DNA from: Escherichia coli
Lineage (GTDB): Bacteria; Pseudomonadota; Gammaproteobacteria; Enterobacterales; Enterobacteriaceae
DNA length: 64,000 bases
Direction: 5' to 3' (one strand)
Assembly (NCBI RefSeq): GCF_017348835.2
Contig: NZ_CP071375.1
Positions within the stretch are counted from its first letter, which is position 1. Every line of letters begins with the position of its first letter. This document shows positions 11,578-23,976 of this stretch, in pieces. Under the pieces are notes generated by a model, which saw only the letters and a program-made list of their open reading frames with translations, searched no databases and was not told where the DNA came from. The position numbers were made by a program, and so were the translations under genes.

Positions 11578-12939
11578 TCAGAAGAACAGTGACGGATCGC
11601 CCGCCCGTTTGGTCAGGCGACCGTTTGCCATAATGCCCATGCTTTCCAGCCAGCGTTCAAACTCCGGTGACGGGCGCAGGTTGAGTAACTGACGCACAGT
11701 GGCGGTATCGTGGAATGCGGTGGTCTGGTAATTGAGCATGATGTCATCACCCAGCGGCATCCCCATGATGTAGTTGCAGCCTGCGGTGGCGAGCAGGATC
11801 ATCAGGTTTTCGTTGAGGTTCTGGTCAGCGTCAGCGTGGTTGGTGTAACAGCAGTCACAGCCCATAGAGATGCCGCTCAGCTTGCCCATAAAGTGATCTT
11901 CTAAGCCCGCACGAATAATCTGGCGGTCATTGTAGAGATACTCCGGCCCAATAAAGCCGACCACGGTGTTGACGATAAACGGATCGTAATGACGCGCCAG
12001 CCCGTAGTTACGCGCTTCCATGGTCACCTGGTCTGCGCCGTAGTTGGCACCCGCCGACAGCGCCGAACCTTGCCCGGTTTCGAAGTAGAGGCAGTTTTCC
12101 CCGGCGATACGGTTGAACTCTGCACCCACTGCGCGCGCTTCGTCGAGCATCGCCAGTTCCACGCCAAACTCTTTCAGCCCTTTTTCACTGCCACAGATAC
12201 TCTGGAAAATCAGCCCGCCTGGTGCGCCACGACGAATCGCTTCGATCTGGGTGGTGACGTGCGCCAGTACGCAGCCCTGAGTTGGGATGTTGAATTTGTC
12301 GATCACGCCATAGATGGTGTCCAGCACGCGGCTTAAGTTTTCCACGTCGTCAGTTACCGGGTTGACGCCGATCACCGCATCGCCCACCCCGAAGGAAAGC
12401 CCTTCGTAGATTTGCGCGGCGATACTTTGCACGTCGTCACGGGTGTCATTTGGCTGCAAACGGGCGCTAAAGGTGCCCGGAATACCGATGGTGGTATTGG
12501 CCTTTTTGATTACCGGCATTTTCTTCGCGCCGTAGATCAGGTCCGCGTTGGAGCAAATCTTCGCTACCGCCGCGACCACTTCCGAGGTCAGCCCTTTGCG
12601 GGTAAAGGCAATGTCGTCCACGCTGGTTTCATCGCTCAGCACATACTCACGCAGTTCGCTGATGCTCCAGTTTTTAATCTGGTTGTAGGCCGTTTCGTTA
12701 ACATCGTCCTGAATCAGCCGCGTCACGCAGTCATCTTCATAGGCAATCACCGGATTATTGCGGATGTCCGCTACGGTCATTTCCGACAACACCTGCTTTG
12801 CTGCCACGCGCTCCTGTGAGCTTGCCGCTGCAACGCCCGCCAGCACATCCCCCGAACGCAGTTCGTTGGCTTTAGCCAGCACCTCTTTTACATCCTTAAA
12901 CTGATATACATTGCCGAACAATGTGGTCTTTAGTTTCAT
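11578..12939 (-). CDS. eutB: Ethanolamine ammonia-lyase large subunit
   Basis: ORF trimmed to ATG 12937-12939 (MKLKTTLFGNVYQF...); 453 aa. Confidence 0.93.
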   Translation of the reverse strand: MKLKTTLFGNVYQFKDVKEVLAKANELRSGDVLAGVAAASSQERVAAKQVLSEMTVADIRNNPVIAYEDDCVTRLIQDDVNETAYNQIKNWSISELREYVLSDETSVDDIAFTRKGLTSEVVAAVAKICSNADLIYGAKKMPVIKKANTTIGIPGTFSARLQPNDTRDDVQSIAAQIYEGLSFGVGDAVIGVNPVTDDVENLSRVLDTIYGVIDKFNIPTQGCVLAHVTTQIEAIRRGAPGGLIFQSICGSEKGLKEFGVELAMLDEARAVGAEFNRIAGENCLYFETGQGSALSAGANYGADQVTMEARNYGLARHYDPFIVNTVVGFIGPEYLYNDRQIIRAGLEDHFMGKLSGISMGCDCCYTNHADADQNLNENLMILLATAGCNYIMGMPLGDDIMLNYQTTAFHDTATVRQLLNLRPSPEFERWLESMGIMANGRLTKRAGDPSLFF

Positions 12940-13050
12940 AAGTCGTTCCCTCAGGAAGAAGTGATGAGTGACATTTTTCACAGCCTTCAAACAATTCTAT
13001 TTCATCGTTAACCCTTGTCCTGTAAGGTAATTACCTTAGTACGCCCGCTA

Positions 13051-13087
13051 TTCATCCTGCCGAACGCAACCGAACGCGCCGGATACA
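13051..13087. repeat. Left att-like imperfect direct repeat (ttcatcctgcc..N17..ccggataca)
   Basis: Shares the 11-bp and 9-bp arms at the same spacing with 22476-22511. Confidence 0.5.
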
Positions 13088-13127
13088 TGAGCGGGGTTAT
13101 CGAGTCGTTAGATCGAGGTATCCGGTT

Positions 13128-14333
13128 TTGAGCAAGACACCACTGACAGCAAAGGCCATAGAGGCCGCACAACCGCAGGACAAGCCCTATAAACTCACCG
13201 ATTCACAGACACCTGGCCTGTTTTTGCTGGTCCATCCCAACGGCAGCAAATACTGGCGATTCCGGTATTGGATAGACAAGAAGGAGCGGTTACAGGCTAT
13301 TGGGGTGTATCCGCTGATTAGCCTCAAGGAAGCCCGCAAACGCGCCACAGAGAGCCGTTTACTGATAGCCCAGGGAATTGACCCAATGGATTTGGCACGC
13401 AAGGAGAAAGCCATTGATGCTCTTAATGCTATCGCCAGTTTTAAAGCTGTAGCAGAAGACTGGATGGCTACCAAGGTGAGCGGATGGAGTGAGAGCTATA
13501 CAAAGCAGGTCAGATCGGCACTAGAGAAAGATGTTTACCCCGTGCTAGGTAAGCGGTCGATAGTGGATATAACGGCCCGTGACGTGCTGGCGTTACTACA
13601 GAAAAAGGAGCGCACCGCACCGGAACAAGCCAGGAAATTACGCCAGCGTATCGGGGAGATCTTCAAATTTGCCGTTATCACTGAACTGGTTAACCGGAAT
13701 CCGGTTGCAGATCTGGATACGGCACTGAAAGCCAGACGCCCAGGCCATAACGCGTGGATACCGATTAATGAAATTCCGGCCTTCTACAAAGCCCTTGAGA
13801 GAGCTGGGAGCGTTCAGATTCAGACGGCAATACTTTTGCTCATCCTCACAGCTTTGAGGACGGCAGAATTGCGCCTGATGCGCTGGGAATGGGTAGATCT
13901 GCAATCGGCAACAATCACATTGCCCGCTGAAGTCATGAAGGCCCGCCGACCGCATGTTGTCCCGCTATCCCGGCAGGCGGTCGAGCTATTACAGGACCAG
14001 TTTACCCGCAGCGGATACAGTGCTTTCGTCTTTCCTGGCCGATTCATGGACAAGCCACTTTCAGCCAGTGCCATCCTTAAAGCCCTGGAGCGTATCGGAT
14101 ACAAGTCGATAGCCACAGGCCACGGCTGGCGGACCACCTTTTCAACGGCGCTTAATGAGTCCGGCAGGTACTCACCAGACTGGATCGAAATCCAACTGGC
14201 CCACGTTCCGAAAGGCGTGCGCGGTGTTTATAACCAGGCGGCCTACCTGAAGCAACGACGGGCCATGATGCAGGATTATAGCGACTGTATTGATTCAATA
14301 CTGGCTGGTGACGGTAATCCACTTGAACCGTGA
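13128..14333 (+). CDS. intZ: P4-family tyrosine site-specific integrase
   Basis: 401-aa ORF; AP2-like N-terminal domain; C-terminal catalytic region with R..HGWR..Y signature (HGWRTTFSTAL, RGVYNQAAY); first island gene beside the left repeat. Confidence 0.88.
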   Translation: MSKTPLTAKAIEAAQPQDKPYKLTDSQTPGLFLLVHPNGSKYWRFRYWIDKKERLQAIGVYPLISLKEARKRATESRLLIAQGIDPMDLARKEKAIDALNAIASFKAVAEDWMATKVSGWSESYTKQVRSALEKDVYPVLGKRSIVDITARDVLALLQKKERTAPEQARKLRQRIGEIFKFAVITELVNRNPVADLDTALKARRPGHNAWIPINEIPAFYKALERAGSVQIQTAILLLILTALRTAELRLMRWEWVDLQSATITLPAEVMKARRPHVVPLSRQAVELLQDQFTRSGYSAFVFPGRFMDKPLSASAILKALERIGYKSIATGHGWRTTFSTALNESGRYSPDWIEIQLAHVPKGVRGVYNQAAYLKQRRAMMQDYSDCIDSILAGDGNPLEP

Positions 14334-14455
14334 ACTATAAGGCCGGGTTTATACTCAATATCGACGGTTGAAGCGCTCAAAAAACAACCGTGACAACCGT
14401 CACAAATATGCAATGTCAATGATCTGAATCAATAAATTGCCAATTCTTCGTTTCC

Positions 14456-14470
14456 ACTTTCGAATGAAAG
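14456..14470. repeat. 15-bp motif actttcgaatgaaag, copy 1 (internal inverted repeat ctttc/gaaag)
   Basis: Exact duplicate of 14591-14605. Confidence 0.7.
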
Positions 14471-14590
14471 CAAGATGCAGAAAAATAAATCACCATGAAA
14501 TCATGTACTTATTAATTTTGACCAAATGGTCCAAAATATCCTCGGTGAATCCATGCTTGCCACAGCCAGATGATTAATATTTAACCCATG

Positions 14591-14605
14591 ACTTTCGAAT
14601 GAAAG
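14591..14605. repeat. 15-bp motif actttcgaatgaaag, copy 2
   Basis: Exact duplicate of 14456-14470, 135 bp away, in AT-rich non-coding DNA. Confidence 0.7.
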
Positions 14606-14733
14606 TAAATTGATAAAAAAGTCAGTGTACACTAACTAAATCGAATATTTTTTGCGCTATGTTTGAATGATAATTGAGCAAAACTTTCGCAAGGTGTGAC
14701 GATGTGAGTAATTAATTTTAACTCTACAATAAA

Positions 14734-14791
14734 CCCATCCCGACAGGGATGGTACCTGGAGCGGAGCGAGAGGGACCATCCCCCTGTTTTT
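14734..14791 (+). terminator. Nested hairpins followed by a T-run (terminator-like; may also act on the minus strand)
   Basis: cccatcccgacagggatgg hairpin overlapping ggatggtacc..N16..gggaccatcc stem, then ccctgttttt. Confidence 0.45.
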
Positions 14792-14884
14792 AGTCTTTTG
14801 AAGTTAGTTTTTTAAGGGATTAAATAATTTTGCCTCAAATGAGACCACACCATACAAGGCCAAAAACAATCAGTATTGCGTGGA

Positions 14885-15400
14885 TCAGGCTGGTTTTTTA
14901 ACTATATACCCCGTATGCCAAGGATTCTGATCGCGCGGCATCGGGTCCGCCTTGATAGACTCATAAAACTTATCAGCCATCTCAGCCACAAACTGTACAG
15001 AGGATTCGAACTCAGCGTTTTTGTGTGCGGGAGGAAACCAGAAGTCTAACACGCCAGCATTTCTATTTTTACATACAGCGTATATAAGATAAGCATCAGA
15101 TGTAGGGGTAACTTTTTCGAAACCACCGGGACCATAACGACCAGTAGACCAGTCATCCCAGCATTGTTCTGTCCCGCTATAGCCGTACTGATTGGTATAA
15201 AGACCAATATTTACATGGACTTTACGTAAGTGGATAGGATATACACACGGGGGTTTATGGAAAAGAGTATCCTTTCCAAAATCAGGATGATGTCCATATC
15301 TCCAATGATAAATAAACGAATCCTTAAAGCTCTTTAATTCATCGTTTGTTTTAAACTTATTATCACTGTAGACCTTACCAATAAATTCATTCTGGACCAT
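14885..15400 (-). CDS. Hypothetical protein (171 aa), distal gene of two-gene island cassette
   Basis: ORF 14885-15403; ATG at 15398-15400; overlaps upstream gene by 14 nt; Trp/Tyr/His-rich, no family recognised. Confidence 0.6.
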   Translation of the reverse strand: MVQNEFIGKVYSDNKFKTNDELKSFKDSFIYHWRYGHHPDFGKDTLFHKPPCVYPIHLRKVHVNIGLYTNQYGYSGTEQCWDDWSTGRYGPGGFEKVTPTSDAYLIYAVCKNRNAGVLDFWFPPAHKNAEFESSVQFVAEMADKFYESIKADPMPRDQNPWHTGYIVKKPA

Positions 15401-15734
15401 CAAAGCTTACACTCTTTAAGCGTTCTTCTCGTGAATCGAATAAATCTTTTGATAAATCACACGCTTGTGTGAACGTCATTTTTTTTACTCGTGGTACAGC
15501 CATAGGCGAGGCCGCATTCATCACTTTGTTTTCTTCGTGATCGAGAGTAGCAGTGTAGCGAAACATGACACTTTTACCGCGCACCAACTGGTATCCTAGT
15601 CGATACGCTAACGCGTCAAGATGCGTCAGACGATTTGTTTTACGCAAGCCAGTCATAGCTTTTGGCTTACGAGTGCGCACAGAAAGGGATTTCCCTTCTC
15701 GCTTAGTCGCAAACAAAGTAACTATTTTTGACAT
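15387..15734 (-). CDS. Hypothetical basic protein (115 aa), proximal gene of two-gene island cassette
   Basis: ATG 15732-15734 preceded by GGAGA RBS; Lys/Arg-rich; stop overlaps start of downstream gene. Confidence 0.55.
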   Translation of the reverse strand: MSKIVTLFATKREGKSLSVRTRKPKAMTGLRKTNRLTHLDALAYRLGYQLVRGKSVMFRYTATLDHEENKVMNAASPMAVPRVKKMTFTQACDLSKDLFDSREERLKSVSFDGPE

Positions 15735-16290
15735 GGTATCTCCTGACATCAATCTGCTAAGGCCATTGTGCCTTGTTTGAATAGTAAACTATTCGCCCAA
15801 TCTACACCAGTGATTTTCTTGACGCCAATAGTAAAGGCAGCATTGCCCACCACAGGCAGACAATGAGACTTCAGATAGCGCACCTTCTATCGCGCACGCG
15901 CTCAATAAAACCAACGACACCGCCATCCTGCCTGACCGATGTTTTTAACCAGCGTATACAGAGAAACAGACAACAGCATGAAATCAGCGTATATCCAGGT
16001 GCAGACGGCACTATCACACAACGCACAGCAGGCTGAGGTGAACACTCAAGCAACTTTATCCCCGCCACCGACCACCGCAAACTATCATGACCGTGCCAAA
16101 TTCAAAAGGAATGGCCCATATAACGCGATGAACACACATAAGCGCTACACTTGCTTACCTGAAAACTTCACAGCGTCACAGCGCGTTTTAGACACGTTAA
16201 AATTAATGAGATTTCATTAAATTTTCACCAGACACCGGAACAAGCCTATAAATCAAAAATGAATTACCGACATGCGCCGCTGGCGTTCAC

Positions 16291-16310
16291 AGGAAGAATC
16301 AATAACTTAG
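16291..16310. repeat. Imperfect direct repeat aggaagaatcaataacttag, copy 1
   Basis: 17/20 identical to 16391-16410, exactly 100 bp downstream. Confidence 0.55.
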
Positions 16311-16390
16311 GCCAATGGCGAAAGTTAAACAAAATCAAGAACTTGCAGAAATGCAGGATGAAGCAGCCGATGTGCCCCGTTGGATTTTAC

Positions 16391-16410
16391 CAGAAGAATC
16401 AACAAGTTAG
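16391..16410. repeat. Imperfect direct repeat cagaagaatcaacaagttag, copy 2
   Basis: See 16291-16310. Confidence 0.55.
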
Positions 16411-16662
16411 ACTCGGTGATTTCACCGACTCCTGCCGGACTACTGACCAGATCGAACCATTCCCCAAATTTGGGGAGAGCAAACCACACGCAGATCCTGC
16501 CAGGCTATTTCATCCCACCGCATCACGTATTTGCACACTTCCCCGCTGACGTGCTCATTTTGATAACGAGTTACCCGCTAGCCCTTGCCACATCACCATT
16601 TGTCGCGCTTTGACTAAATTAGCGACGTGCCTGTTATAGCGATACGCTAGTTATGCAGAAAG

Positions 16663-16682
16663 CGCGACATATCCAGCAACCA
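16663..16682. repeat. Exact 20-bp direct repeat cgcgacatatccagcaacca, copy 1
   Basis: Identical to 16790-16809; lies just upstream of the 16707 ORF start. Confidence 0.7.
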
Positions 16683-16706
16683 TGCACCCTACAGAGGAAT
16701 TGAATC

Positions 16707-17159
16707 ATGCGAGACATAGACTGGTCAGCTATCCCTTTCGATGATTTACCGCCCTGGCATCTGGACTGGGACGTAGACCAACGCGAAAACGCGACATATC
16801 CAGCAACCACCAGCATTACAGCGATGCGCCCCGTAAAGCCTAAGAAATACCAGGCAACCGACCTGATAGCTCACCTCAAAGCTATTGGCGGCGTATTTAC
16901 CGGAAGCAAAGACACGCTTGCACATGAAGTATGGCCCCGGAAGACGCCAGCGGGTCGAACCGTTTTACGCTTACTGACCGAACTGTCAGACAACGGCGAC
17001 GCTGTAGTGATTAACCGTGGTCGTTGTGGCGTGGAAGTTATTCTGACGCCGAAGAACAGGGCACAGACGCCTGAATTAAGCGCACCCAAGCAAATGCATA
17101 GCCAAAAATTAAGTCCAGCAGAACGCGTTATATCGCTTTTAAATGGCATCGGATTTTAA
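16707..17159 (+). CDS. Hypothetical protein (150 aa)
   Basis: ORF with GAGG RBS about 10 nt upstream of the ATG; non-repetitive composition; no family recognised. Confidence 0.5.
   Translation: MRDIDWSAIPFDDLPPWHLDWDVDQRENATYPATTSITAMRPVKPKKYQATDLIAHLKAIGGVFTGSKDTLAHEVWPRKTPAGRTVLRLLTELSDNGDAVVINRGRCGVEVILTPKNRAQTPELSAPKQMHSQKLSPAERVISLLNGIGF
16790..16809. repeat. Exact 20-bp direct repeat cgcgacatatccagcaacca, copy 2
   Basis: Inside the 5' end of the 16707 ORF; 127 bp from copy 1. Confidence 0.7.
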
Positions 17160-17185
17160 TTAATTTTGATGTGGTAATTGCAGGC

Positions 17186-17213
17186 AAAAAAATCCCGCCG
17201 GAGAAAGCGGGGA
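17186..17213 (-). terminator. Intrinsic terminator-like hairpin oriented for the minus strand
   Basis: Minus-strand reading ccccgctttctccggcggg followed by U7 (plus strand aaaaaaa-tcccgccggagaaagcgggga). Confidence 0.5.
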
Positions 17214-17446
17214 AGTGAAATCAATCGTTGTAGTTATAGATCACATTTTGGAGTTGAGGATGGCTAATCCTCGCTAATATTATCGCGCCGTTATGTGATG
17301 GGCGCAATTATTTCTTACTAATTAAAAGTTTTGTAAATATTACAGAATATCCCTTTTCACTATATGGTAAAAGATGTGAAACAGGGACATGAGGAATATA
17401 ATATTAAGTATCAACAGTAATGTTGGTCTTTAATTTCATTCAGGGC

Positions 17447-17490
17447 GCGGTGAGGGTTTTCTCCATATTTTTCCTCACCGCTACTTTTTC
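17447..17490 (+). terminator. Terminator/attenuator-like hairpin immediately upstream of the AlpA-like gene
   Basis: gcggtgagg..N17..cctcaccgc stem then tactttttc; a third complementary segment gaggtgag overlaps the RBS of the next gene. Confidence 0.45.
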
Positions 17491-17501
17491 GAGGTGAGAA
17501 C

Positions 17502-17693
17502 ATGAATGATAGCGAATTAATGACGGTGAACGAGGTAGCCGCTTTATTCGGCGTTACCCGTCGGACAATATTCCGGTGGATGAACAAGATTAAAGGCTGG
17601 CCCGTCCCGGTCAGTCCGATTGGCTCAAGAATTAAGTTTATCCGATCTGAGATTTTGGAATTCTATAAAAACAAAGGCGCTCGCCACCAATGA
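17502..17693 (+). CDS. AlpA/Xis-like small DNA-binding regulator (phage transcriptional regulator family)
   Basis: 63-aa ORF with HTH-like segment VNEVAALFGVTRRTIFRWM; GAGGTGA RBS. Confidence 0.65.
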   Translation: MNDSELMTVNEVAALFGVTRRTIFRWMNKIKGWPVPVSPIGSRIKFIRSEILEFYKNKGARHQ

Positions 17694-17769
17694 AAACAGC
17701 TACTGAGATTATCAAATAACCTATTGATTTAAAAAGCTAGCTACCGCAATTTCTGAAGGAATAGGCAGC

Positions 17770-18096
17770 ATGAAAATCAAAGCAAACACAATTAAAGAAA
17801 TAACATCAATCAAAGTAAAAGGAGCAGATGCCATGCATTCATTAGATAGTTATTTTCAGCGCACGACAGCCCCTAAATCAGCCGCCCAGGAACGCCGTGA
17901 GGAATTCCAGGAAAAAGTGATGCGTTCTGCTGATTATATTGCGGACAAGTTCGCGGAAACGGTTCGGCCACTTGTTGATGAAGTAGCTGATAAACTTCAG
18001 TCTGAAATGCCGGAAGACATGGAAGGCACTGCAAAGGCGCGACTCCTTTTTGAATTAAGTCGTCGTTTCGGCGTGTCAATAAGCACTTTTAAATAA
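17770..18096 (+). CDS. Hypothetical phage protein (108 aa)
   Basis: ORF in co-directional island gene string; no family recognised. Confidence 0.5.
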   Translation: MKIKANTIKEITSIKVKGADAMHSLDSYFQRTTAPKSAAQERREEFQEKVMRSADYIADKFAETVRPLVDEVADKLQSEMPEDMEGTAKARLLFELSRRFGVSISTFK

Positions 18097-18113
18097 TCGG
18101 AGGAGGAAAGACA

Positions 18114-18656
18114 ATGGACGCATTTGATGTACTGACAAACAAAGGCGATGAACTGGTAGCACAGCGTGATAAAACCGCCAACGAAGGGGAACGCGCACTG
18201 TTAAATAAGCAGATTAAAGCGATCCGTATGGCCCAGTTTAAATTAATCAGCAATGAAGTTATCGAAAAAATTAAACCGCAGATCCCACAAATCGTTGCTG
18301 ACGCTATTAAAGCCGCCGGACTGGAGAAACGCATTGCCGGGCTGAAAACGAACGCAGAGAAAATGGAGATGCACAAACAGAGCGGTGCTCCGACTCCGGA
18401 TGAGTACTTCTCACCGGATGCTGAGTTTATGGCGCAGGTTGAGGAACGTCTGGGTAGCTGTCTCACCGAGGAACAGTGTCGCTATTTTGATGGAGTGGAT
18501 AGTTCGGCAGGTATTGACCTGAACTCGTATTTCGGTCGTGAAATTGAGCATTTTGATGCCGCCCCGTCTATGCCGGAGCCAGAACCAGAAATGGCCGCCG
18601 ATCCTGAAGCTGAGCAACGGAAACGCGTATTCAATGCGATAGGGATTCGGTACTGA
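18114..18656 (+). CDS. Hypothetical phage protein (180 aa), acidic C-terminus
   Basis: ORF preceded by GGAGGAAAG RBS (18092-18108); no family recognised. Confidence 0.55.
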   Translation: MDAFDVLTNKGDELVAQRDKTANEGERALLNKQIKAIRMAQFKLISNEVIEKIKPQIPQIVADAIKAAGLEKRIAGLKTNAEKMEMHKQSGAPTPDEYFSPDAEFMAQVEERLGSCLTEEQCRYFDGVDSSAGIDLNSYFGREIEHFDAAPSMPEPEPEMAADPEAEQRKRVFNAIGIRY

Positions 18657-18707
18657 TCGGATAAAAGAAAGCCGGGAATTACCCCGGCTGACTTAACAAT
18701 GTGACCA

Positions 18708-19082
18708 ATGAACAAATCGGACAAGACAAACAGGATAAGCAGTCTCGAAACAATGTTCGGGAACTATATTAGCACAAGTCCGGAGAAAATCATCATGTTG
18801 GCACTACGCATCATGCAGGGCATCGCTAAGACCCTCGCAGAACATGTCTTAGACCTGAAACATTCGCCACTGAGCAAACAGGCCATGAAGCGCCAAACGC
18901 TTCGTCTGTGGGCTGAATATTCGCTTGGAACTATCAATAAAATCATCGACATGAAATCGGGGCCGAGCAACCAGAGCGCGGAGGAAATGGAGTTCATCAG
19001 GCGTTTAATTCTCATTCGCAGAGACATTCATAGCCAGTTACACAGCGTGGGAATCGATATTAATGATGGGACGGGCGATTAA
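18708..19082 (+). CDS. Hypothetical phage protein (124 aa)
   Basis: ORF in co-directional gene string. Confidence 0.45.
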   Translation: MNKSDKTNRISSLETMFGNYISTSPEKIIMLALRIMQGIAKTLAEHVLDLKHSPLSKQAMKRQTLRLWAEYSLGTINKIIDMKSGPSNQSAEEMEFIRRLILIRRDIHSQLHSVGIDINDGTGD

Positions 19083-19120
19083 TTTTCGGACAAGTACTAT
19101 GCGCGCGCGAGGAGCTGAAC

Positions 19121-19351
19121 ATGAAGCAAGATATTGCAGACAGGCTGGAGATACTCGAAGGCCAGCGGGCAGAAGCGAAACAACTACGTAAGCAGGCCAG
19201 AAGAGCGCACAGGAACTACGAAGCAGAATCACTGACCGCTTTCATCAACTTCACAAACCGTTGCATCCTGGAGTGTTACAGGGAGGATGCAGAAAACTGG
19301 CTGGATTCATTGCCAGAACAGACTCTGCATGAACTGAACGGCGACCAGTAA
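19121..19351 (+). CDS. Hypothetical phage protein (76 aa)
   Basis: ORF with GAGGAG RBS upstream. Confidence 0.45.
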   Translation: MKQDIADRLEILEGQRAEAKQLRKQARRAHRNYEAESLTAFINFTNRCILECYREDAENWLDSLPEQTLHELNGDQ

Positions 19352-19638
19352 ATAAATCCAGTACGTTTCCCGCAGTGCGCATAACGTACATTATGTGAAA
19401 AACGATATGGATATATATCAGTCTGACTTCAATGAAGAAAACGGACTTCCAGCATCAACCACAAAGAAGTATGGCTAATGCAGCTTTATAAGCCATTGAT
19501 TCTATTAAACGATATTTTTTGTGATTGGTTGAAGCAAACCAAAACACGATGCCACTGAAGCGTTAATAAACTGTTTCAATGTGAAATTATCAGAGTAAAG
19601 AACAATTTGGAGGGTCCGCAAACGCGGATAACAATATC

Positions 19639-21819
19639 ATGAGTGGAAATCTCGGGACCATATACTACGAGGTCGATGCCCGCACTGGGAAACTTCTTAT
19701 CGCGCAACAGCAGGCGGAAGAGGCGTTCGATCGCATTGAACGAGGAGCGCGGAAGGCTGATAGCGGCGTCAAAAAGTTAAATACGCAGATGACTAAAACA
19801 TCAGCCGCAGTCAAAACCAACCTTTCCCCGGCAATCCGTAACGCATCATACCAGATCGCAGACCTTGCCACTCAATTGCAGATGGGCGGTAATGCGCTTC
19901 AGGCGTTCGCTGTGCAGGGTGCGCAGTTATTAGCTGGCTTTGGCACGATGGGCGCGGTAGCTGGCGCGGTGCTGGCTATCGCTGGCGCTATGGGTGGAAG
20001 CCTGGCACAAGGCGCTGATAGTGCAGCCGGATCGGTTGAGTATCTGGACAAGGCGATCACCAAACTGAACGAGGTCATAGCTGTAAATGAACAGGGCGTG
20101 ACGGTGATGAGTGATAGTTACGCCAGACTTTCTAAGGTTAACGCTGAAGTAGCGAAACAGATGCGGAACATGGCTGAAATTCAGGCAATTGCAGCACTGC
20201 GTGACCTGAAAGAACAGGCAAGCCAGGCACAGGGGGAAATGTCGTCATTCTGGCGCAGCTTGCAGGGTGGTAAAGCTGACGCAGCAGCAGCAGCACAGGC
20301 ACTTGATGATCTTGGAATCACAACCAACGACTACAAAGAGGCGATAGCCATACTGAACGCCAATCAGCCGGATACACAGGCGCAAATGGCAACGCTAGCT
20401 AAGTCCGTGATGTACATAGGCGAGGAATACAACCTGACAAACCAGCAAGCCTACGAGTTCATCCGAGCACTAAATAGGGCCGCGACAACGAGAACGCCGG
20501 AAGCCATGCAGGAACTATCGGGCTTCATGCAGGTATTGCTACAGGACACCGAAAACGGTAACGAGGCATTCCGTGAACTGGCTATCAAATTCGTTGATGC
20601 ACAAACCAAAGGCGCAATGCTGGAAGACCAACTAAACCGACTGAAAGGCGCTATCAGTGACGCAGCCACAGAAGCCAGAAACGCCAATTTTACCACTATG
20701 CTCAACACCGTCGCCGCACGCCTGGCAGCCATTGAGCAAGGTTGGGAGGCAGGCGTTAGGATGCAGATGAAAGCCCAGGGCTACACTGAAGAGCAGATCG
20801 ATGAATATGTGAACATGGAAACGGCGTACCGTGATGCAAAAGCCGCTTTGGACGAGAAGAATAAGGCCGACCGTGAAGCTATTGCGCTATCCAAACGCCA
20901 GGCCGCAGAAGCAGCCCGCAAGGCAAAACAGGAAGAAGCTGAAGCACAACGCAAGGCCAAACAGTTAGCCGCGCAGAAGGAGCAGGCAGGACGCTTTACG
21001 CAGCAAGTAATGACGGAATACCTGACGACCGTAGATCCGGCAACAGGCAAGGCGTTTAACCCTGCCGCACAAGTAGAAATGCAGGAGCAGCAGAAGAAAG
21101 CGGCGCTGGATAAATACAGACAGTTGGGCGTCCTGGATGAACAGCAGTACCAGAACACGCTAACCGCCATCCAGAAAACCGCGTCAATGCGCCGCCAGCA
21201 AATCATCAAAGACGAGGCCGACACGTTATTCAACAATCAGCAACAGTTGATCGGCACATTTGGCGATTTCTTCGGTGAACTGTCTGGAGTCATAGCAGAC
21301 GGTGCAGGTGAGCAAAACGCGGCATATCAAGCGCTATTTGCTGTGCAGAAGGGTTTTGTATTGGCATCAGCAGCTTTAAGCCTTCAGAAAGCGCTTGCTG
21401 AGGCAAACGCCTTGCCTTTCCCGGCTAATCTTCCGGCCTATGCGCAAGCTATGTCAGCAGGCACGCAGATCATTTCAGCTATTCGTGGAATAGCTTTCGG
21501 TGGCGGACGCTACAACGGCGGCGCGGTTGGTGCTGGCAACCTGTACCGCGTGGGTGAACACGGTAAGCCTGAGATATTCAAGGCGAACAATGGCAGCCAG
21601 TACATGATCCCAGGTGATAACGGTCGCGTGATAAGTAATCGTGACATTGGCGGCGGTGGCGGCGTAACAATCAACAGCCCGATCACCATTAACACTACGA
21701 ATGGCTTCAGTGATGAAGACTCAAGGCGTCTTGAGGAAGCGATGAAGCGCGTAGCTATGGGCGTTTGCAGGCAGGAGTCAACCAGACCGGGAGGAATGTT
21801 AGCCCCGCGCCGTCGTTAA
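19639..21819 (+). CDS. Phage tail tape-measure-like protein (lambdoid H-like), orphan
   Basis: 726-aa Ala/Gln-rich coiled-coil ORF; C-terminal GNLYR motif and Gly-rich tail as in lambda H; no neighbouring tail genes. Confidence 0.6.
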   Translation: MSGNLGTIYYEVDARTGKLLIAQQQAEEAFDRIERGARKADSGVKKLNTQMTKTSAAVKTNLSPAIRNASYQIADLATQLQMGGNALQAFAVQGAQLLAGFGTMGAVAGAVLAIAGAMGGSLAQGADSAAGSVEYLDKAITKLNEVIAVNEQGVTVMSDSYARLSKVNAEVAKQMRNMAEIQAIAALRDLKEQASQAQGEMSSFWRSLQGGKADAAAAAQALDDLGITTNDYKEAIAILNANQPDTQAQMATLAKSVMYIGEEYNLTNQQAYEFIRALNRAATTRTPEAMQELSGFMQVLLQDTENGNEAFRELAIKFVDAQTKGAMLEDQLNRLKGAISDAATEARNANFTTMLNTVAARLAAIEQGWEAGVRMQMKAQGYTEEQIDEYVNMETAYRDAKAALDEKNKADREAIALSKRQAAEAARKAKQEEAEAQRKAKQLAAQKEQAGRFTQQVMTEYLTTVDPATGKAFNPAAQVEMQEQQKKAALDKYRQLGVLDEQQYQNTLTAIQKTASMRRQQIIKDEADTLFNNQQQLIGTFGDFFGELSGVIADGAGEQNAAYQALFAVQKGFVLASAALSLQKALAEANALPFPANLPAYAQAMSAGTQIISAIRGIAFGGGRYNGGAVGAGNLYRVGEHGKPEIFKANNGSQYMIPGDNGRVISNRDIGGGGGVTINSPITINTTNGFSDEDSRRLEEAMKRVAMGVCRQESTRPGGMLAPRRR

Positions 21820-22315
21820 CCAAATCCCACGCCAGGGGGATAGACTGGCGGCCTTTCAATTCCGTTGAAACGACGGAATCAAACACCCCGATTCAGGGTA
21901 TTTAAACGTCGCGTTTCACGACATTTATCTAAGTCATTGATTTATATTGTAACTCATAATTGAGTTGCGCCGACCATCCCGCCACAAACGCTCCTACGCA
22001 AAAATTCCCTCACAATTACCCTGCCAATTTTCCAGATTTCACGTATACGCGCCTATATCCCCGCCACCGGATACACGCCCGCTTATACCGGATACTTTTA
22101 TGCCATCATTATTAAATCCATTAATAATCATCAAACCATAATTAGCACAACTTATAATCGAACAAAAAACACACAACATTGATAATGATTTTTTCTGGTT
22201 ATACTTATCTAAAAAAGTGGTATGGGAAGTAACTTATTGTTTTGTAATTACAAATTTATTGCGTGGTCAGATGAACAGACTTGCGCACCTCCCGAAAAAC
22301 ACGCGAAAATCGAAG

Positions 22316-22426
22316 TGTTCTTTCTTTTTTTGTTTTTTATTTTTTTATTTTCTCTTTTTCTTCTCTTTCCGGTTCTCTTCTTTTTCTGGTTTTGGTTTTT
22401 TCCTTTTTTATTTTTATTCTTTCTTC
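22316..22426. repeat. ~110-nt homopyrimidine (T/C-rich) low-complexity tract
   Basis: About 90% pyrimidine on the top strand by eye; no plausible coding frame. Confidence 0.7.
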
Positions 22427-22475
22427 AGGGTTGTGATCAAACACACCAAAACATTTTCGCCACAAAAGCGTTAAT

Positions 22476-22511
22476 TTCATCCTGCCAGACCATTCACTTT
22501 CACCGGATACA
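22476..22511. repeat. Right att-like imperfect direct repeat (ttcatcctgcc..N16..ccggataca)
   Basis: Partner of 13051-13087; a further partial copy (caccggatacac) at 22065-22076. Confidence 0.5.
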
Positions 22512-22572
22512 CAGCCGGATATAATCCCGCTAACACCCAGCCACCCAGCATCACGCCTGATAACTACCGTAT

Positions 22573-23976
22573 TCAGGAAGGAAATGCGAGTGATTTCACC
22601 GTCACCGGCACAACCGATCCGCCAAAAAGAGGCGTACCAATGTCGATATAGTCCCCCGCGCGGACAATCACTTCGTCAATGACTGCCAACGGGAGTTGTT
22701 GTAGCTGTGGGCGCAACAACATGCCCAGAGCTTTACCAAAGTCCTGCCCGGCCACCACCAGCAGGGGATGCGGATTCGGAAAACGCGCGACGAAATCGAC
22801 CAACGCGTTGATGACCGTCAGTACCGCGGCGTAACGCACAGGCAGCGAGGCGGGAAGCGCCAGCACGTACGCGTCAGTTTTGGGATCAAGATCCAGCTGA
22901 ATCAGCGCCTGTTGCCAGGCACTCACCAGATCCGTTTCATCAATCGGGATCGCCACCGGCAAATTGCGCAGCGGCAGTTGTACGCCCTCCAGCCAGATTG
23001 TGCTGCCAGAGAGCGAAAGGGTATGTGCACCCGCGCCAATCACCGTGGCGCGTACGGTTTGCGCCGGAAACTGCACGTTCATCTCACGCAGGCGCGGATG
23101 GTCATGCAGCGCCGTTGCCAGAAGCGGGCCAATATCGGCAAAACAGAACGGGTCGGCGGGCTGGTGGCGATAACATTCGCCCACGCCGCCAGAAAGCGTA
23201 ATGATTTCGGGCGTAACACCTGCGGGCAGCAAACCGGTTTGCATTAATGCCTGCGCGAGCGGCGAAAGCGTTCCGTCAATCACTTCGACAATCAGCTCTG
23301 CCATCCGCCAGGTAACCTGCACCAGCTGCGCGCCGGTCAGCGAACGGGCGTCGGTGCCTGCGCCGAAGCACTCATCCACAATCATCTGCCCCGGTTTATG
23401 AGCGTAAACCACGCGCCCCTGGCTGTCGGTTTCCAGCAGGCGACCACCGACGTTGAGGCAGGCAGTGCCGCTGATTTTTCCGGCATCGAACAGGGCGTAG
23501 TTCGCGGTGCCACCGCCGATGTCGATATTCAGTACCCGACACAGCCGTTGTTCAGAAAGGGTTTGCGCCCCGGCACCGTGACCGGCGATCACGGATTCGA
23601 GGTGCGGCCCGGCGCTGGCGACGACAAAATCGCCCAGCGACTGAGAGAGCGCCATCACCGCCGGGCGAGCATTGCGGGTTTTCGCGCTTTCACCGGTGAT
23701 GATGATGGCACCAGAATCAACGCTTTCCGGCGCAATGCCCGCAGCCTGATATTGCTCTAAAATCAGCGATTTCAGTTCCGCTTCTTTTAAACCACCCTGT
23801 TTATCGACAGGGGTAAAGAACACCGGGCTTTGCCAGCTAATTTCGCGTTTGATGAATTCGTAGCGCGGCACCTGCGACACCGCCGCACGGTTAACCAGTT
23901 CCAGGTGGGAGAAAATCACCTGGGTGGTGGTGGTGCCGATATCGATACCGACGCTCAGTAGCTGGCGAGTGTTCAC
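22573..23976 (-). CDS. eutA: Ethanolamine ammonia-lyase reactivating factor
   Basis: 467-aa ORF; conserved eut order. Confidence 0.92.
   Translation of the reverse strand: MNTRQLLSVGIDIGTTTTQVIFSHLELVNRAAVSQVPRYEFIKREISWQSPVFFTPVDKQGGLKEAELKSLILEQYQAAGIAPESVDSGAIIITGESAKTRNARPAVMALSQSLGDFVVASAGPHLESVIAGHGAGAQTLSEQRLCRVLNIDIGGGTANYALFDAGKISGTACLNVGGRLLETDSQGRVVYAHKPGQMIVDECFGAGTDARSLTGAQLVQVTWRMAELIVEVIDGTLSPLAQALMQTGLLPAGVTPEIITLSGGVGECYRHQPADPFCFADIGPLLATALHDHPRLREMNVQFPAQTVRATVIGAGAHTLSLSGSTIWLEGVQLPLRNLPVAIPIDETDLVSAWQQALIQLDLDPKTDAYVLALPASLPVRYAAVLTVINALVDFVARFPNPHPLLVVAGQDFGKALGMLLRPQLQQLPLAVIDEVIVRAGDYIDIGTPLFGGSVVPVTVKSLAFPS

What the first reader, a model, noticed from the sequence alone, without database searches (positions are those of the whole stretch)
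13051..22511. ~9.5 kb integrase island splits the eut operon between eutB and eutA; content may differ from K-12 CPZ-55
The eut genes on both sides are intact and co-oriented, so the operon transcript (minus strand, eutS to eutK) has to cross the island. K-12 has the CPZ-55 prophage at this locus. However the ORF sizes here (171, 115, 150, 63, 108, 180, 124, 76, 726 aa after the integrase) do not match my recollection of K-12 yffL-yffS (roughly 213, 81, 122, 138, 197, 125, 130, 269 aa), suggesting a variant or more complete element. My memory of those sizes is not reliable enough to be sure.
Basis: partly seen in the sequence, partly recalled or inferred. Interest (0 to 1): 0.55.

Follow-up and report, generated by a model that had tools for sequence, protein, structure and literature searches.

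The report
Tape-measure-carrying mobile island splitting eut
A 9.6-kb mobile element sits between eutA and eutB of an E. coli pig isolate; it is not the K-12 CPZ-55 "cryptic prophage" but a relative from a family that looks like phage satellites carrying their own tail tape measure gene.

Summary
A 9,614-bp island (window 12959-22572) lies between the eutB start and the eutA stop. It is bounded by the 8-bp repeat TCAGGAAG already published for CPZ-55. The window is 100% identical to E. coli PE164.

Only the integrase (91% aa), the ends and a 65-bp motif match K-12 CPZ-55. The cargo differs: a weak YafO-like toxin pair, an excisionase-type HTH, five small unknown ORFs and an intact 726-aa tail tape measure protein (TMP).

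Ten other IntZ elements at the same junction (6.8-14.8 kb) form a mosaic family with conserved gene order. Some also carry a small-terminase-like gene (K-12 YffO), a tail-completion gene or an abortive-infection gene. The TMP and integrase are under purifying selection (dN/dS 0.06-0.17). TMP length is fixed at 725-732 aa, like phage mEp013.

Relatives with TMPs at least 90% identical occur as circular 10-11-kb contigs without integrase. Some of these carry a primase-helicase-like gene.

My best reading is a helper-dependent, satellite-like element that supplies its own TMP. Function is inferred, not shown. In K-12 such insertions abolish ethanolamine use.

The island is ordinary as a variant at a known hotspot. 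The satellite reading is the interesting part.

The parts
11578..12939 (-). eutB (ethanolamine ammonia-lyase large subunit), intact. It is the first eut gene downstream of the island in operon direction.
   Evidence: PGAP annotation of the 100% identical PE164 record; ORF list.
12951..12958 (.). attL copy of the 8-bp core TCAGGAAG. It keeps the eutB ribosome-binding region unchanged.
   Evidence: Comparison with the empty site and 10 occupied sites. Same duplication published for CPZ-55 (PMC6379469).
12959..22572 (+). The whole island: 9,614 bp, IntZ-type integrative element.
   Evidence: Junctions identical in window, K-12 and 9 other strains. 100% identical to E. coli PE164.
12994..13021 (-). 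Promoter-like site (AGGACA-16-TAGAAT) in the island's left arm, pointing out toward eutB. Speculative.
   Evidence: Consensus scan only. Total promoter-like sites were fewer than in shuffles, so this is weak.
13079..13125 (.). Left-arm pair of CCGGATAY motifs (13079-13087 on +, 13118-13125 on -). Candidate arm-type integrase binding sites.
   Evidence: The CCGGATAYW scan found 6 plus-strand sites in 64 kb, all inside the island, against 1.2 expected. The shorter CCGGATAY also occurs a few times outside the island. The motif sits at fixed offsets +121/-160 in all 10 IntZ elements and is absent or single in integrase-less relatives.
13128..14333 (+). intZ-type tyrosine integrase, 401 aa.
   Evidence: phrog_1 8.4e-69. 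91% aa identity to K-12 IntZ. dN/dS 0.08-0.13.
14885..15400 (-). YafO-like putative toxin, 171 aa. The family assignment is weak.
   Evidence: PGAP name. Pfam YafO_toxin i-E 0.0094, 16.5 bits. phrog_1651 9e-43, unknown function.
15387..15734 (-). 115-aa ORF overlapping the toxin start. Putative antitoxin by position only.
   Evidence: PGAP CDS. No family hit.
15735..16706 (.). About 970 nt with no credible ORF, holding direct repeats. Conserved in relatives, including a circular one. Role unknown (regulatory region or origin?).
   Evidence: Repeats D3 and D7. Conservation 78-92%.
16707..17159 (+). 150-aa ORF of unknown function.
   Evidence: 100% identical protein in circular contig L015 and in L007. 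No family hit.
17194..17211 (-). Terminator-like hairpin (CCCGC...GCGGG followed by T7) that works only on the minus (eut) strand. It would stop eut read-through. A second such site is at 18670-18689.
   Evidence: Consensus scan. Function inferred.
17502..17693 (+). 63-aa HTH protein of the excisionase/MerR (HTH_17) type. Probable excisionase and/or regulator.
   Evidence: phrog_66 1.7e-09. TIGR01764 23.6 bits, below its 28.8 cut-off. HTH_17 in homologues.
17770..18096 (+). 108-aa core ORF (homologues ~88 aa; the true start may be M22). Unknown function.
   Evidence: Family alignment A5. Present in integrated and circular relatives.
18114..18656 (+). 180-aa core ORF with repeated (D/E)YF motifs in an acidic tail. 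Unknown function.
   Evidence: Alignment A4. Homologues named in the sources are almost all E. coli or Shigella (one partial Salmonella hit).
18795..19082 (+). 95-aa YffM-family core protein, predicted three-helix bundle. Unknown function.
   Evidence: Homologous to K-12 YffM and to proteins of plasmids and circular contigs. AF2 pLDDT 88.7. No informative fold match.
19121..19351 (+). 76-aa ORF of unknown function.
   Evidence: Conserved at 98% in six of the ten compared IntZ elements (86% in a seventh). No family hit.
19639..21819 (+). Intact tail tape measure protein, 726 aa.
   Evidence: phrog_1538 2.8e-103 and phrog_1107 6.7e-58. Sf11 TMP gp18 (PDB 9OCC) 5.2e-11 alone, 1.3e-81 as a profile. 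Ends conserved with phage mEp013 TMP. dN/dS 0.06-0.17.
21830..21850 (+). Hairpin CGCCAG-N9-CTGGCG just after the TMP stop codon. Conserved across the family.
   Evidence: Alignment A1.
21989..22053 (+). Near-invariant ~60-bp non-coding motif, the only cargo DNA shared with K-12 CPZ-55. Role unknown.
   Evidence: No phage match below E=0.1 and no Rfam match.
22067..22096 (+). Two further CCGGATAY motifs (22067, 22088).
22316..22430 (+). Polypyrimidine (T-rich) tract in an AT-rich spacer. Unexplained.
   Evidence: Sequence. Repeats.
22503..22523 (+). Right-arm pair of CCGGATAY motifs, 70 and 58 bp from the island end. Candidate arm-type sites.
22573..22580 (.). attR copy of TCAGGAAG. Its first three bases are the complement of the eutA stop codon.
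22573..23976 (-). eutA, intact. It is the last eut gene upstream of the island in operon direction.

Best explanation
The feature is a 9.6-kb site-specific integrative element.

Shown:
- An IntZ-type tyrosine integrase inserted it at an 8-bp core (TCAGGAAG) that overlaps the eutA stop codon. This is the site used by K-12 CPZ-55.
- Its cargo is different from CPZ-55.
- It belongs to a mosaic family known so far almost only from E. coli and Shigella. The shared gene order is: integrase, variable cargo, excisionase-type HTH, four or five small conserved ORFs, optionally a small-terminase-like gene with a partner, optionally a tail-completion gene, a ~727-aa tape measure protein, a conserved non-coding motif, then more variable cargo.
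- Family members exist both integrated at eutA/eutB and as circular 9-11-kb molecules.

Inferred:
- The family is a phage-satellite-like parasite of temperate siphoviruses with mEp013-type tails.
- After excision (integrase plus the HTH protein), the element would be packaged and spread using a helper phage's virion proteins.
- Its own tape measure protein would be built into, or compete for, the helper's tail, much as Vibrio PLE satellites do.
- The toxin-like pair would stabilise the element or act in defence.

While integrated, the island is expected to block transcription from eutA into eutBCLK. The strain would then not use ethanolamine unless the island excises precisely. This is shown for the K-12 relative and inferred here.
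For: Site and integrase:
- Junctions are identical in 11 loci. IntZ is 91% identical to the K-12 protein.
- CCGGATAY motifs sit at fixed offsets at both ends of all IntZ elements and are absent or single in integrase-less relatives.

Different cargo.

Family and mosaicism.

Phage-assembly genes and no other phage genes:
- TMP.
- terS-like YffO and relatives, phrog_1482, E from 5.5e-13 to 3.7e-11.
- Neck1/tail-completion protein in L012.
- No capsid, portal, tail-tube or lysis gene in any of the elements examined.

Genes are maintained, not decaying:
- TMP dN/dS is 0.06-0.17 at dS up to 0.43. Integrase dN/dS is 0.08-0.13.
- TMP length is 718-729 aa in 119 of the 120 best clusters and 726-732 aa in alleles only 43% identical. 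The phage mEp013 TMP is 735 aa and shares conserved N- and C-termini.

Episomal relatives:
- L015, L023 and L024 have 127-, 127- and 77-nt terminal overlaps.
- L016, L017 and L018 are cyclic permutations from three different samples (the two Logan contigs 99.97% identical; the ENA contig 98-99.95%).
- All lack intZ and eut flanks and carry a TMP 90-91% identical to the window's.
- L016-L018 encode a DUF5906 primase-helicase-like protein, phrog_1156 4.6e-29.
- The closed plasmids CP057168.1 and CP058022.1 share the backbone.

Precedent for satellite TMPs: PLE (PMC11838301) and EPIPs.

Polarity on eut: PMC7617246 and PMC11334477. Minus-strand terminator-like hairpins lie inside the island.

Low-frequency excision of CPZ-55: PMC3105296.
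Against: - No experiment shows induction, packaging or transfer of any family member.
- No helper phage is identified. Whether PE164 carries an mEp013-like prophage was not checked.
- The window element itself has no recognisable replication gene and no terS-like gene, so it may be a non-transferable derivative.
- The elements are nearly absent from IMG/VR: one 4.8-kb hit to the motif and no TMP above about 68% identity.
- The predicted attP junction was not found in JGI metagenome contigs.
- The conserved 60-bp motif has no convincing match in phage genomes; the single hit was 35 nt at E=0.1. A shared cos or pac site is therefore not supported.
- A mobilome study saw no CPZ-55 activity in K-12 under stress.
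- Circular contigs show an episomal state, not encapsidation.
Confidence: 0.55

Rival explanations
1. It is a decaying remnant of a full-size temperate phage that once integrated at eutA/eutB, the classical 'cryptic prophage' view. The tape measure gene would be a leftover with no present role.
For: K-12 CPZ-55 is annotated as a cryptic prophage (PMC3105296). The TMP is a typical phage gene whose relatives sit in 40-50-kb phage contigs. Some variants have IS elements, frameshifted ORFs or a pseudogenised intZ.
Against: No full-size prophage was seen at this site among the loci examined; all are 6.8-14.8 kb with the same gene order. There are no remnants of capsid, portal, tube or lysis genes. 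The TMP and integrase are under strong purifying selection with fixed TMP length. Close relatives are circular 10-11-kb molecules with their own replication genes.
Confidence: 0.15
2. It is chiefly a mobile defence island. The TMP homologue acts as a decoy that poisons tail assembly of infecting siphoviruses, and the toxin pair gives abortive infection. The element itself is not packaged.
For: Variable slots hold defence-type cargo: an AIPR abortive-infection protein in L006, YafO-like toxins and HNH nucleases. Tail-assembly interference is a known defence strategy on satellites and prophages (PMC11364771, PMC10884400). The TMP N- and C-termini match phage TMPs, as a competitor would need.
Against: PADLOC found no known defence protein in the window element apart from an HTH resembling mad1. 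The terS-like and tail-completion genes in relatives point to packaging rather than pure defence. A strictly conserved full TMP length is not obviously needed for a decoy. This rival is compatible with the satellite reading, since satellites usually interfere with their helper.
Confidence: 0.2
3. It is an integrated small plasmid (an integrative plasmid family) that has picked up phage genes by chance and has no functional link to phages.
For: Relatives are circular 9-11-kb molecules, two of them deposited as closed plasmids and typed non-mobilizable. Some have serine recombinases and replication-initiator-like genes.
Against: The phage-type genes (TMP, terS-like) are the conserved, selected core of the family rather than sporadic cargo. 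With no mobilisation or conjugation genes, horizontal spread across E. coli lineages needs another vehicle.
Confidence: 0.1

Closest known systems
CPZ-55 cryptic prophage of E. coli K-12 (intZ, yffL-yffS)
   Same: Same integration point and 8-bp duplication. IntZ is 91% identical. Same CCGGATAY motifs at both ends. Same 60-bp non-coding motif. A YffM-family protein is present. Orientation is opposite to the eut operon.
   Different: The other 9 ORFs have no homology to yffL-yffS. The window island has a 726-aa tape measure gene and a toxin-like pair, which K-12 lacks. K-12 has terS-like YffO, YffP, replication-initiator-like YffL and YffQRS, which are absent here. Sizes are 9,614 bp against 6,790 bp.
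PLE satellites of Vibrio cholerae (helper phage ICP1)
   Same: Small integrative elements that encode their own tape measure protein, which is built into satellite particles and changes the tail (PMC11838301). This is the same concept proposed here.
   Different: Different host. The helper is a myovirus. No sequence homology was tested or expected. PLEs also encode a tail chaperone, a baseplate hub, RepA and several anti-ICP1 factors. PLE function is shown experimentally; here it is only inferred.
PICIs of Gram-negative bacteria (e.g. EcCICFT073) and P4-like satellites
   Same: Size of 7-15 kb. Integrase at one end. A small HTH regulator or excisionase. terS-like genes and SF3 primase-helicase in some family members. 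Variable slots with defence or toxin genes. P4 likewise can live integrated or as a plasmid (general knowledge).
   Different: The window element has no primase-replicase, no terS or capsid-redirection gene, and no Sid, Psu, Delta or cos region. It carries a tail gene, which classical PICIs and P4 do not.
Tape measure proteins of temperate siphoviruses (mEp013 gp87; Shigella phage Sf11 gp18, PDB 9OCC)
   Same: Full-length homology, with the same length class (726 aa against 735 and 780). The N-terminal ~50 aa and the C-terminal ~110 aa, the part that sits in the tail tip, are conserved.
   Different: The gene stands alone, without tail tube, chaperone, tip or head genes. The best phage identity is only about 36% for matches spanning most of the protein; shorter C-terminal segments reach 40-68%.
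EPIPs of Mycolicibacterium (preprint, 2025)
   Same: Small satellite genomes reported to encode a tape measure protein and a small terminase, with altered tail lengths.
   Different: Actinobacterial host, serine integrase, and they also encode capsid-related proteins. No homology was tested.

Membership tests
IntZ / CPZ-55-type integrative elements at the eutA-eutB junction | IntZ-family tyrosine integrase adjacent to attL | tested here: met
   401 aa, 91% identical to K-12 IntZ; phrog_1 8.4e-69.
IntZ / CPZ-55-type integrative elements at the eutA-eutB junction | Insertion right after the eutA stop codon, with duplication of TCAGGAAG | tested here: met
   Published for CPZ-55 in PMC6379469.
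IntZ / CPZ-55-type integrative elements at the eutA-eutB junction | Conserved end sequences with CCGGATAY motifs at fixed offsets | tested here: met
   Offsets +121/-160 and -70/-58 in window, K-12 and 7 others; L007 keeps one of the two right-end motifs.
CPZ-55 sensu stricto (the K-12 element) | Gene content yffL-yffS with near-identical DNA | tested here: not met
   No DNA match between 14330 and 22502 except 65 bp. Protein matches are limited to a weak YffM hit.
Tail tape measure protein | Sequence homology to phage TMPs over the full length, including the C-terminal tip-binding region | tested here: met
   phrog_1538 2.8e-103; phrog_1107 6.7e-58. PDB 9OCC chain M 1.3e-81 with the family profile. 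Alignment with mEp013. Pfam TMP_2 is weak, 8e-4.
Tail tape measure protein | Incorporation in a phage tail and control of tail length | not testable with these tools
   Needs virion proteomics and electron microscopy.
PICI (Gram-negative type) | Primase-replicase (pri-rep) and origin | tested here: not met
   No ORF of the window island hits a replication family in PHROGs, NCBIfam or PADLOC. A DUF5906 helicase occurs only in circular relatives.
PICI (Gram-negative type) | Packaging or capsid-redirection module (terS, Ppi, Rpp) and no virion structural genes | tested here: not met
   The window island has no terS-like gene; one is present in K-12 and other relatives. It does carry a structural gene, the TMP.
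PICI (Gram-negative type) | Integrase plus AlpA-type regulator | tested here: inconclusive
   The integrase is present. The 63-aa HTH is of the excisionase/HTH_17 type (phrog_66 1.7e-09; TIGR01764 below cut-off) and was not shown to be AlpA.
PICI (Gram-negative type) | Induction and high-frequency transfer by a helper phage | not testable with these tools
   Needs an experiment.
P4-like satellites | Alpha primase-helicase, Sid, Psu, Delta and a P2-type cos site | tested here: not met
   No PHROG or NCBIfam hits to these in the island. No convincing phage-database match to the non-coding motif; the one hit was 35 nt at E=0.1.
cfPICI | Own capsid, portal, protease and head-tail connector genes | tested here: not met
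   None found in the window island. Only one relative (L012) has a Neck1/tail-completion gene.
PLE | Satellite-encoded alternative TMP | tested here: met
   TMP present and under selection. This is a functional analogy only.
PLE | Vibrio host, ICP1 helper, and PLE core genes (RepA, TcaP, NixI and others) | tested here: not met
   The host is E. coli, so the Vibrio/ICP1 part of the definition fails. Homology to the PLE core genes was not specifically tested.
Type II toxin-antitoxin, YafO family | YafO_toxin domain with an upstream overlapping antitoxin | tested here: inconclusive
   Pfam PF13957 i-E 0.0094, 16.5 bits. PGAP names it YafO family. The upstream 115-aa ORF overlaps the toxin start but has no family hit.

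The most novel reading that the evidence does not exclude
The IntZ/CPZ-55 elements, including the textbook K-12 'cryptic prophage', and their circular 9-11-kb relatives form a previously unrecognised family of E. coli phage satellites. These can live integrated or as plasmids, and they bring their own tape measure protein to the tails of temperate siphoviruses. This would be a second, independent case after Vibrio PLEs, and in a genetically tractable host. As a side effect, integration and precise excision would act as an on/off switch for ethanolamine use.
Probability: 0.4. Interest if true: 0.7.

Novelty: new variant of a known kind. Interest (0 to 1): 0.5.

Why it matters
Taken narrowly, the result only says that the eutA/eutB hotspot holds a different element from the K-12 one. 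That is already known in outline.

The wider result is more useful. CPZ-55 has been treated for decades as inert phage debris. The comparison here shows a coherent, selected family with both integrated and episomal members, whose conserved core consists of virion-assembly genes. If these are satellites, E. coli K-12 genetics could be used to ask how a satellite-encoded tape measure protein is chosen over the helper's. It could also show what that choice does to tail length, host entry and helper fitness. This question was opened only recently by the Vibrio PLE work.

There is also a practical side. About 8% of complete E. coli genomes carry such an insertion. In K-12 the insertion abolishes ethanolamine use, a trait linked to gut colonisation and urinary tract infection.

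Tried and rejected
- Rfam scan of the island at E up to 0.1: no hit.
- PADLOC: no defence system, only an HTH resembling mad1.
- NCBIfam: nothing beyond the integrase and the HTH.
- Island cargo against 50,697 phage records (blastn): only the last ~300 nt of the TMP gene match, at 66-76%.
- The 150-nt region around the conserved motif against the same records: only one 35-nt hit at E=0.1, treated as chance. A shared cos or pac site is not supported.
- Motif CCAGATTTCACGTAYACGCGC: 1 hit in IMG/VR and 0 in the 100,044 species-representative genomes. There were 20 hits in metagenome contigs, and the ones I could place are integrated copies.
- Predicted attP junction in metagenome contigs: 0 hits. 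This is weak negative evidence for free circles of the IntZ type.
- TMP search in IMG/VR: only distant relatives, in 40-50-kb phages.
- AlphaFold model of the YffM-family protein: confident three-helix bundle, but Foldseek against PDB and BFVD gave only generic helical bundles with E above 0.07. I looked for a tail-chaperone-like fold and found no support.
- The 180-aa ORF looks largely disordered with (D/E)YF repeats, so I did not model it.
- Promoter scan: fewer promoter-like sites than in shuffles, so the outward promoter toward eutB is only a hint.
- I first suspected that some TMP-carrying copies sat at other chromosomal sites because of their coordinates. The one checked (strain C41) is also at eutA/eutB.
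- One script run was spoiled for L012 by a file-name clash and was repeated.

Full report
**1. The observation**

The window region 12500-23000 is 100% identical to the chromosome of E. coli PE164, a pig isolate. An island-free strain aligns up to window 12958 and resumes at 22573. The two alignments share 8 bp, TCAGGAAG.

The island is therefore 12959-22572, 9,614 bp. One copy of the core sits at each end (12951-12958 and 22573-22580). The first three bases of the right copy are the complement of the eutA stop codon. The left copy keeps the eutB ribosome-binding region as it is in empty sites. The same duplication was published for CPZ-55 (PMC6379469).

eutA, eutB and the other 15 eut genes are annotated as intact. 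Their recollection of the K-12 yff sizes is exact. GC content drops inside the island.

**2. Is it K-12 CPZ-55?**

No. Against MG1655, only these parts align:
- eutB plus the integrase gene (82.7% nt)
- a 65-bp stretch at 21989-22053
- the last ~70 bp of the island

At the protein level IntZ is 91% identical. The only other link is a weak match between the 124-aa ORF and YffM (35% over 81 aa, E 4e-8).

**3. What the island encodes**

| Window position | Strand | Product |
|---|---|---|
| 13128-14333 | + | Tyrosine integrase |
| 14885-15400 | - | 171-aa protein. PGAP calls it a YafO-family toxin, but it only weakly matches Pfam YafO_toxin (i-E 0.0094). |
| 15387-15734 | - | Overlapping upstream 115-aa ORF, antitoxin-like by position only |
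| 15735-16706 |. | About 970 nt without a credible ORF, but with repeats |
| 16707-17159 | + | 150-aa ORF |
| 17502-17693 | + | 63-aa excisionase/MerR-type HTH (phrog_66 1.7e-09) |
| 17770-19351 | + | ORFs of 108, 180, 95 and 76 aa with no family hits |
| 19639-21819 | + | 726-aa tail tape measure protein (TMP) |

The TMP assignment is strong:
- phrog_1538 at 2.8e-103 covers the N-terminal 455 residues, and phrog_1107 at 6.7e-58 covers the C-terminal 314.
- The solved Shigella phage Sf11 TMP gp18 (PDB 9OCC; PMC12724387) matches at 5.2e-11 with the single sequence and 1.3e-81 with a family profile.

No capsid, portal, tail-tube, lysis or replication gene was detected.

**4. The family**

I examined eleven further occupied sites. 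Ten of them (L002, L004-L011, L022) showed exactly the same junctions where tested. The eleventh, L012, lies between eutB and eutA by its annotation. Measured island sizes run from 6.8 to 14.8 kb.

The gene order is conserved:
1. integrase
2. a variable slot (YafO-like toxins, YffL, other HTH proteins)
3. the HTH
4. the small ORFs
5. an optional slot (a terS-like gene plus partner; an AIPR abortive-infection gene in L006; a Neck1/tail-completion gene in L012)
6. a TMP of 726-732 aa
7. a conserved hairpin and a ~60-bp motif
8. a second variable slot (YffQRS-like and others)

Modules recombine freely. L010, for example, has a 73%-identical integrase, small ORFs that are 93-100% identical, and a different TMP allele.

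K-12 CPZ-55 is a member that has the terS-like YffO (phrog_1482, 5.5e-13), YffP and a weak replication-initiator-like YffL, but no TMP.

Prevalence among 5,426 complete genomes:
- 416 carry intZ, always in one copy.
- 247 match part of the core module.
- 72 carry this TMP allele group.
- 8 carry at least 80% of this very island.

Homologues of the 180-aa ORF and of the TMP that carry a source name are almost all from Escherichia or Shigella; the one exception is a partial Salmonella hit.

**5. Signs of function rather than decay**

- Between window and relatives, TMP dN/dS is 0.06-0.17 at dS 0.05-0.43. Integrase dN/dS is 0.08-0.13 at dS 0.5-1.7.
- TMP length is 718-729 aa in 119 of the 120 best protein clusters.
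- TMP length is 726-732 aa even between alleles only 43% identical. This is close to the 735 aa of phage mEp013, whose TMP is 49% identical over its full length to the L010 allele.
- The N-terminal ~50 and C-terminal ~110 residues are conserved between all element alleles and the phage protein. The C-terminal part sits in the tail tip in solved siphovirus tails (PMC12724387).
- At the DNA level, only that 3' end matches phages: mEp010, mEp013, mEp044, mEp515, and Klebsiella, Salmonella, Yersinia, Hafnia and Morganella temperate siphoviruses, at 66-76%.

**6. Integrase sites**

The scan for CCGGATAYW found six plus-strand sites in the 64-kb window, all inside the island, against 1.2 expected. 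The shorter CCGGATAY occurs a few times outside the island as well.

In all ten IntZ elements the motif sits at offsets +121 and -160 from the left end. In nine of them a pair sits 70 and 58 bp from the right end; L007 keeps one of that pair. It is absent or single in relatives without an integrase. I read these as arm-type integrase binding sites. This is an inference.

**7. Episomal relatives**

This was the most informative result. Several TMP clusters had longest contigs of 10-12 kb.

| Locus | Source | Length | Evidence of circularity |
|---|---|---|---|
| L016 | Logan ERR13033388 | 10,321 bp | 30-nt terminal overlap; cyclic permutation of L017 at 99.97% identity |
| L017 | Logan SRR15373010 | 10,321 bp | 30-nt terminal overlap |
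| L018 | ENA metagenome | 10,293 bp | A further rotation of the same sequence |
| L015 | GCA_958412445.1 | 10,266 bp | 127-nt terminal overlap |
| L023 | GCA_907172595.1 | 11,256 bp | 127-nt terminal overlap |
| L024 | GCA_002485715.1 | 10,942 bp | 77-nt terminal overlap |

None of the six contains intZ, the att core or eut flanks.

- All six carry the HTH and a 726-727-aa TMP 90-91% identical to the window's. Several also carry a terS-like gene. The small-ORF backbone was confirmed by protein comparison for L015 and L017.
- L016-L018 also encode a 529-aa DUF5906 protein that matches the helicase half of phage primases (phrog_1156, 4.6e-29).
- L015 has a serine recombinase and a YffL-like replication initiator (phrog_270, 6.9e-06).
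- Two closed E. coli plasmids, pRHB34-C15_2 (9,003 bp) and pRHB04-C06_4 (8,873 bp), share the HTH, YffM, YffO and YffP backbone without a TMP.

The family therefore has integrated and free circular forms.

**8. Interpretation**

A 7-15-kb element fits a phage satellite better than a decayed prophage when it has all of the following:
- an integrase or its own replication gene
- an excisionase-type regulator
- a terS-like gene
- one or two virion genes under selection
- variable slots with toxin or defence cargo
- no capsid or lysis genes

A satellite-encoded TMP has a direct precedent. All Vibrio PLEs encode an alternative TMP that is selectively built into PLE particles (PMC11838301). A 2025 preprint on mycobacterial EPIPs notes that TMPs are otherwise not known in satellites. 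I found no paper in the held library that treats CPZ-55 or eut-site elements as satellites.

The satellite reading remains an inference:
- No helper is known.
- The window element has neither a terS-like gene nor a recognised replication gene.
- The elements are almost absent from IMG/VR.
- The predicted attP was not found in JGI metagenomes.
- A mobilome study saw no CPZ-55 activity in K-12, although excision at under 1 in 100,000 cells was reported earlier (PMC3105296).

The decoy/defence reading of the TMP cannot be separated from the satellite reading in silico. The two are also compatible.

**9. Effect on eut**

The island's main gene block is antisense to the operon. Minus-strand-specific terminator-like hairpins lie at 17211-17194 and 18689-18670, with further ones at 14405-14388 and 14752-14735.

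For the K-12 relative:
- eutB is not induced by ethanolamine plus B12 in BW25113, and no microcompartments form (PMC7617246).
- Scarless removal of the insertion restores growth on ethanolamine as nitrogen source (PMC11334477).

By analogy, PE164 is probably Eut-negative unless the island excises. This was not tested. A promoter-like site pointing from the island's left arm toward eutB (13021-12994) is only a consensus match.

**10. Verdict**

The island is real and precisely bounded, and it is not K-12 CPZ-55. As a variant at a known hotspot it is a new member of a known kind. The family-level picture is the part worth following up: a selected stand-alone tape measure gene, assembly genes, and circular relatives with replication genes. 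I rate it as a new variant of the phage-satellite theme, with moderate confidence.

Noticed in passing
window 21989-22053 (with the hairpin at 21830-21850): A near-invariant ~60-bp non-coding motif follows a conserved hairpin just after the TMP stop codon. It is retained in K-12 (between yffP and yffQ), in other IntZ elements and in circular relatives, even where the flanking genes differ. It has no convincing phage match and no Rfam match. It could be a promoter, a packaging site or a regulator site.
   Followed up: partly
window 22316-22430: A polypyrimidine (T-rich) tract of about 115 nt lies on the plus strand, inside a 34% GC spacer at the island's right end. PGAP calls a 47-aa ORF on the opposite strand there. 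The stretch is also present in the MRSN346647 variant (L009) at 85% identity.
   Followed up: partly
window 15735-16706: About 970 nt has no credible ORF but holds direct repeats (16267-16310 and 16367-16410; a 25-mer at 16658 and 16785). It is conserved in relatives, including circular L015, where it follows the replication-initiator-like gene. It is a possible origin or operator region.
   Followed up: partly
window 17194-17211 and 18670-18689: Terminator-like hairpins sit inside a block of plus-strand genes, but their T-runs make them terminators only on the minus strand. They would insulate the element from eut operon read-through.
   Followed up: no
L015-L018, L023, L024 (circular contigs); CP057168.1 and CP058022.1 (plasmids): Circular 9-11-kb E. 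coli molecules share the island's backbone. Several carry a TMP 90-91% identical to the window's. Some have a DUF5906 primase-helicase-like gene or a serine recombinase in place of IntZ.
   Followed up: yes
L009 (E. coli MRSN346647, NZ_CP018206.1 3,341,983-3,352,333): A family member in which the TMP region is replaced by a frameshifted pyridoxal-dependent decarboxylase gene, gadC, murI and an IS1. This is metabolic or acid-resistance-type cargo in the same slot.
   Followed up: no
L023 3384-3881 and L025 3793-4290: The circular relative L023 and the related 11.2-kb contig L025 (no terminal overlap detected) encode a cyclophilin-type peptidyl-prolyl isomerase (Pfam Pro_isomerase), next to the terS-like gene and upstream of the TMP.
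   Followed up: no
window 18114-18656: The 180-aa core protein and its relatives carry repeated (D/E)YF motifs in an acidic, probably disordered C-terminal half. They have no family assignment.
   Followed up: partly
L003 (E. coli O157:H7 N8B7-2): In this island-free strain eutA is annotated as a pseudogene with an internal stop. The eut operon can therefore be broken in other ways.
   Followed up: no
K-12 derivatives (JM109 record NZ_CP117962.1, hit H58; literature on W3110 and XL1-Blue): Some K-12 laboratory lineages have an empty eutA/eutB site. CPZ-55 has therefore been lost precisely more than once, or was never fixed in the lineage. This fits the low-frequency excision reported in 2010.
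   Followed up: partly
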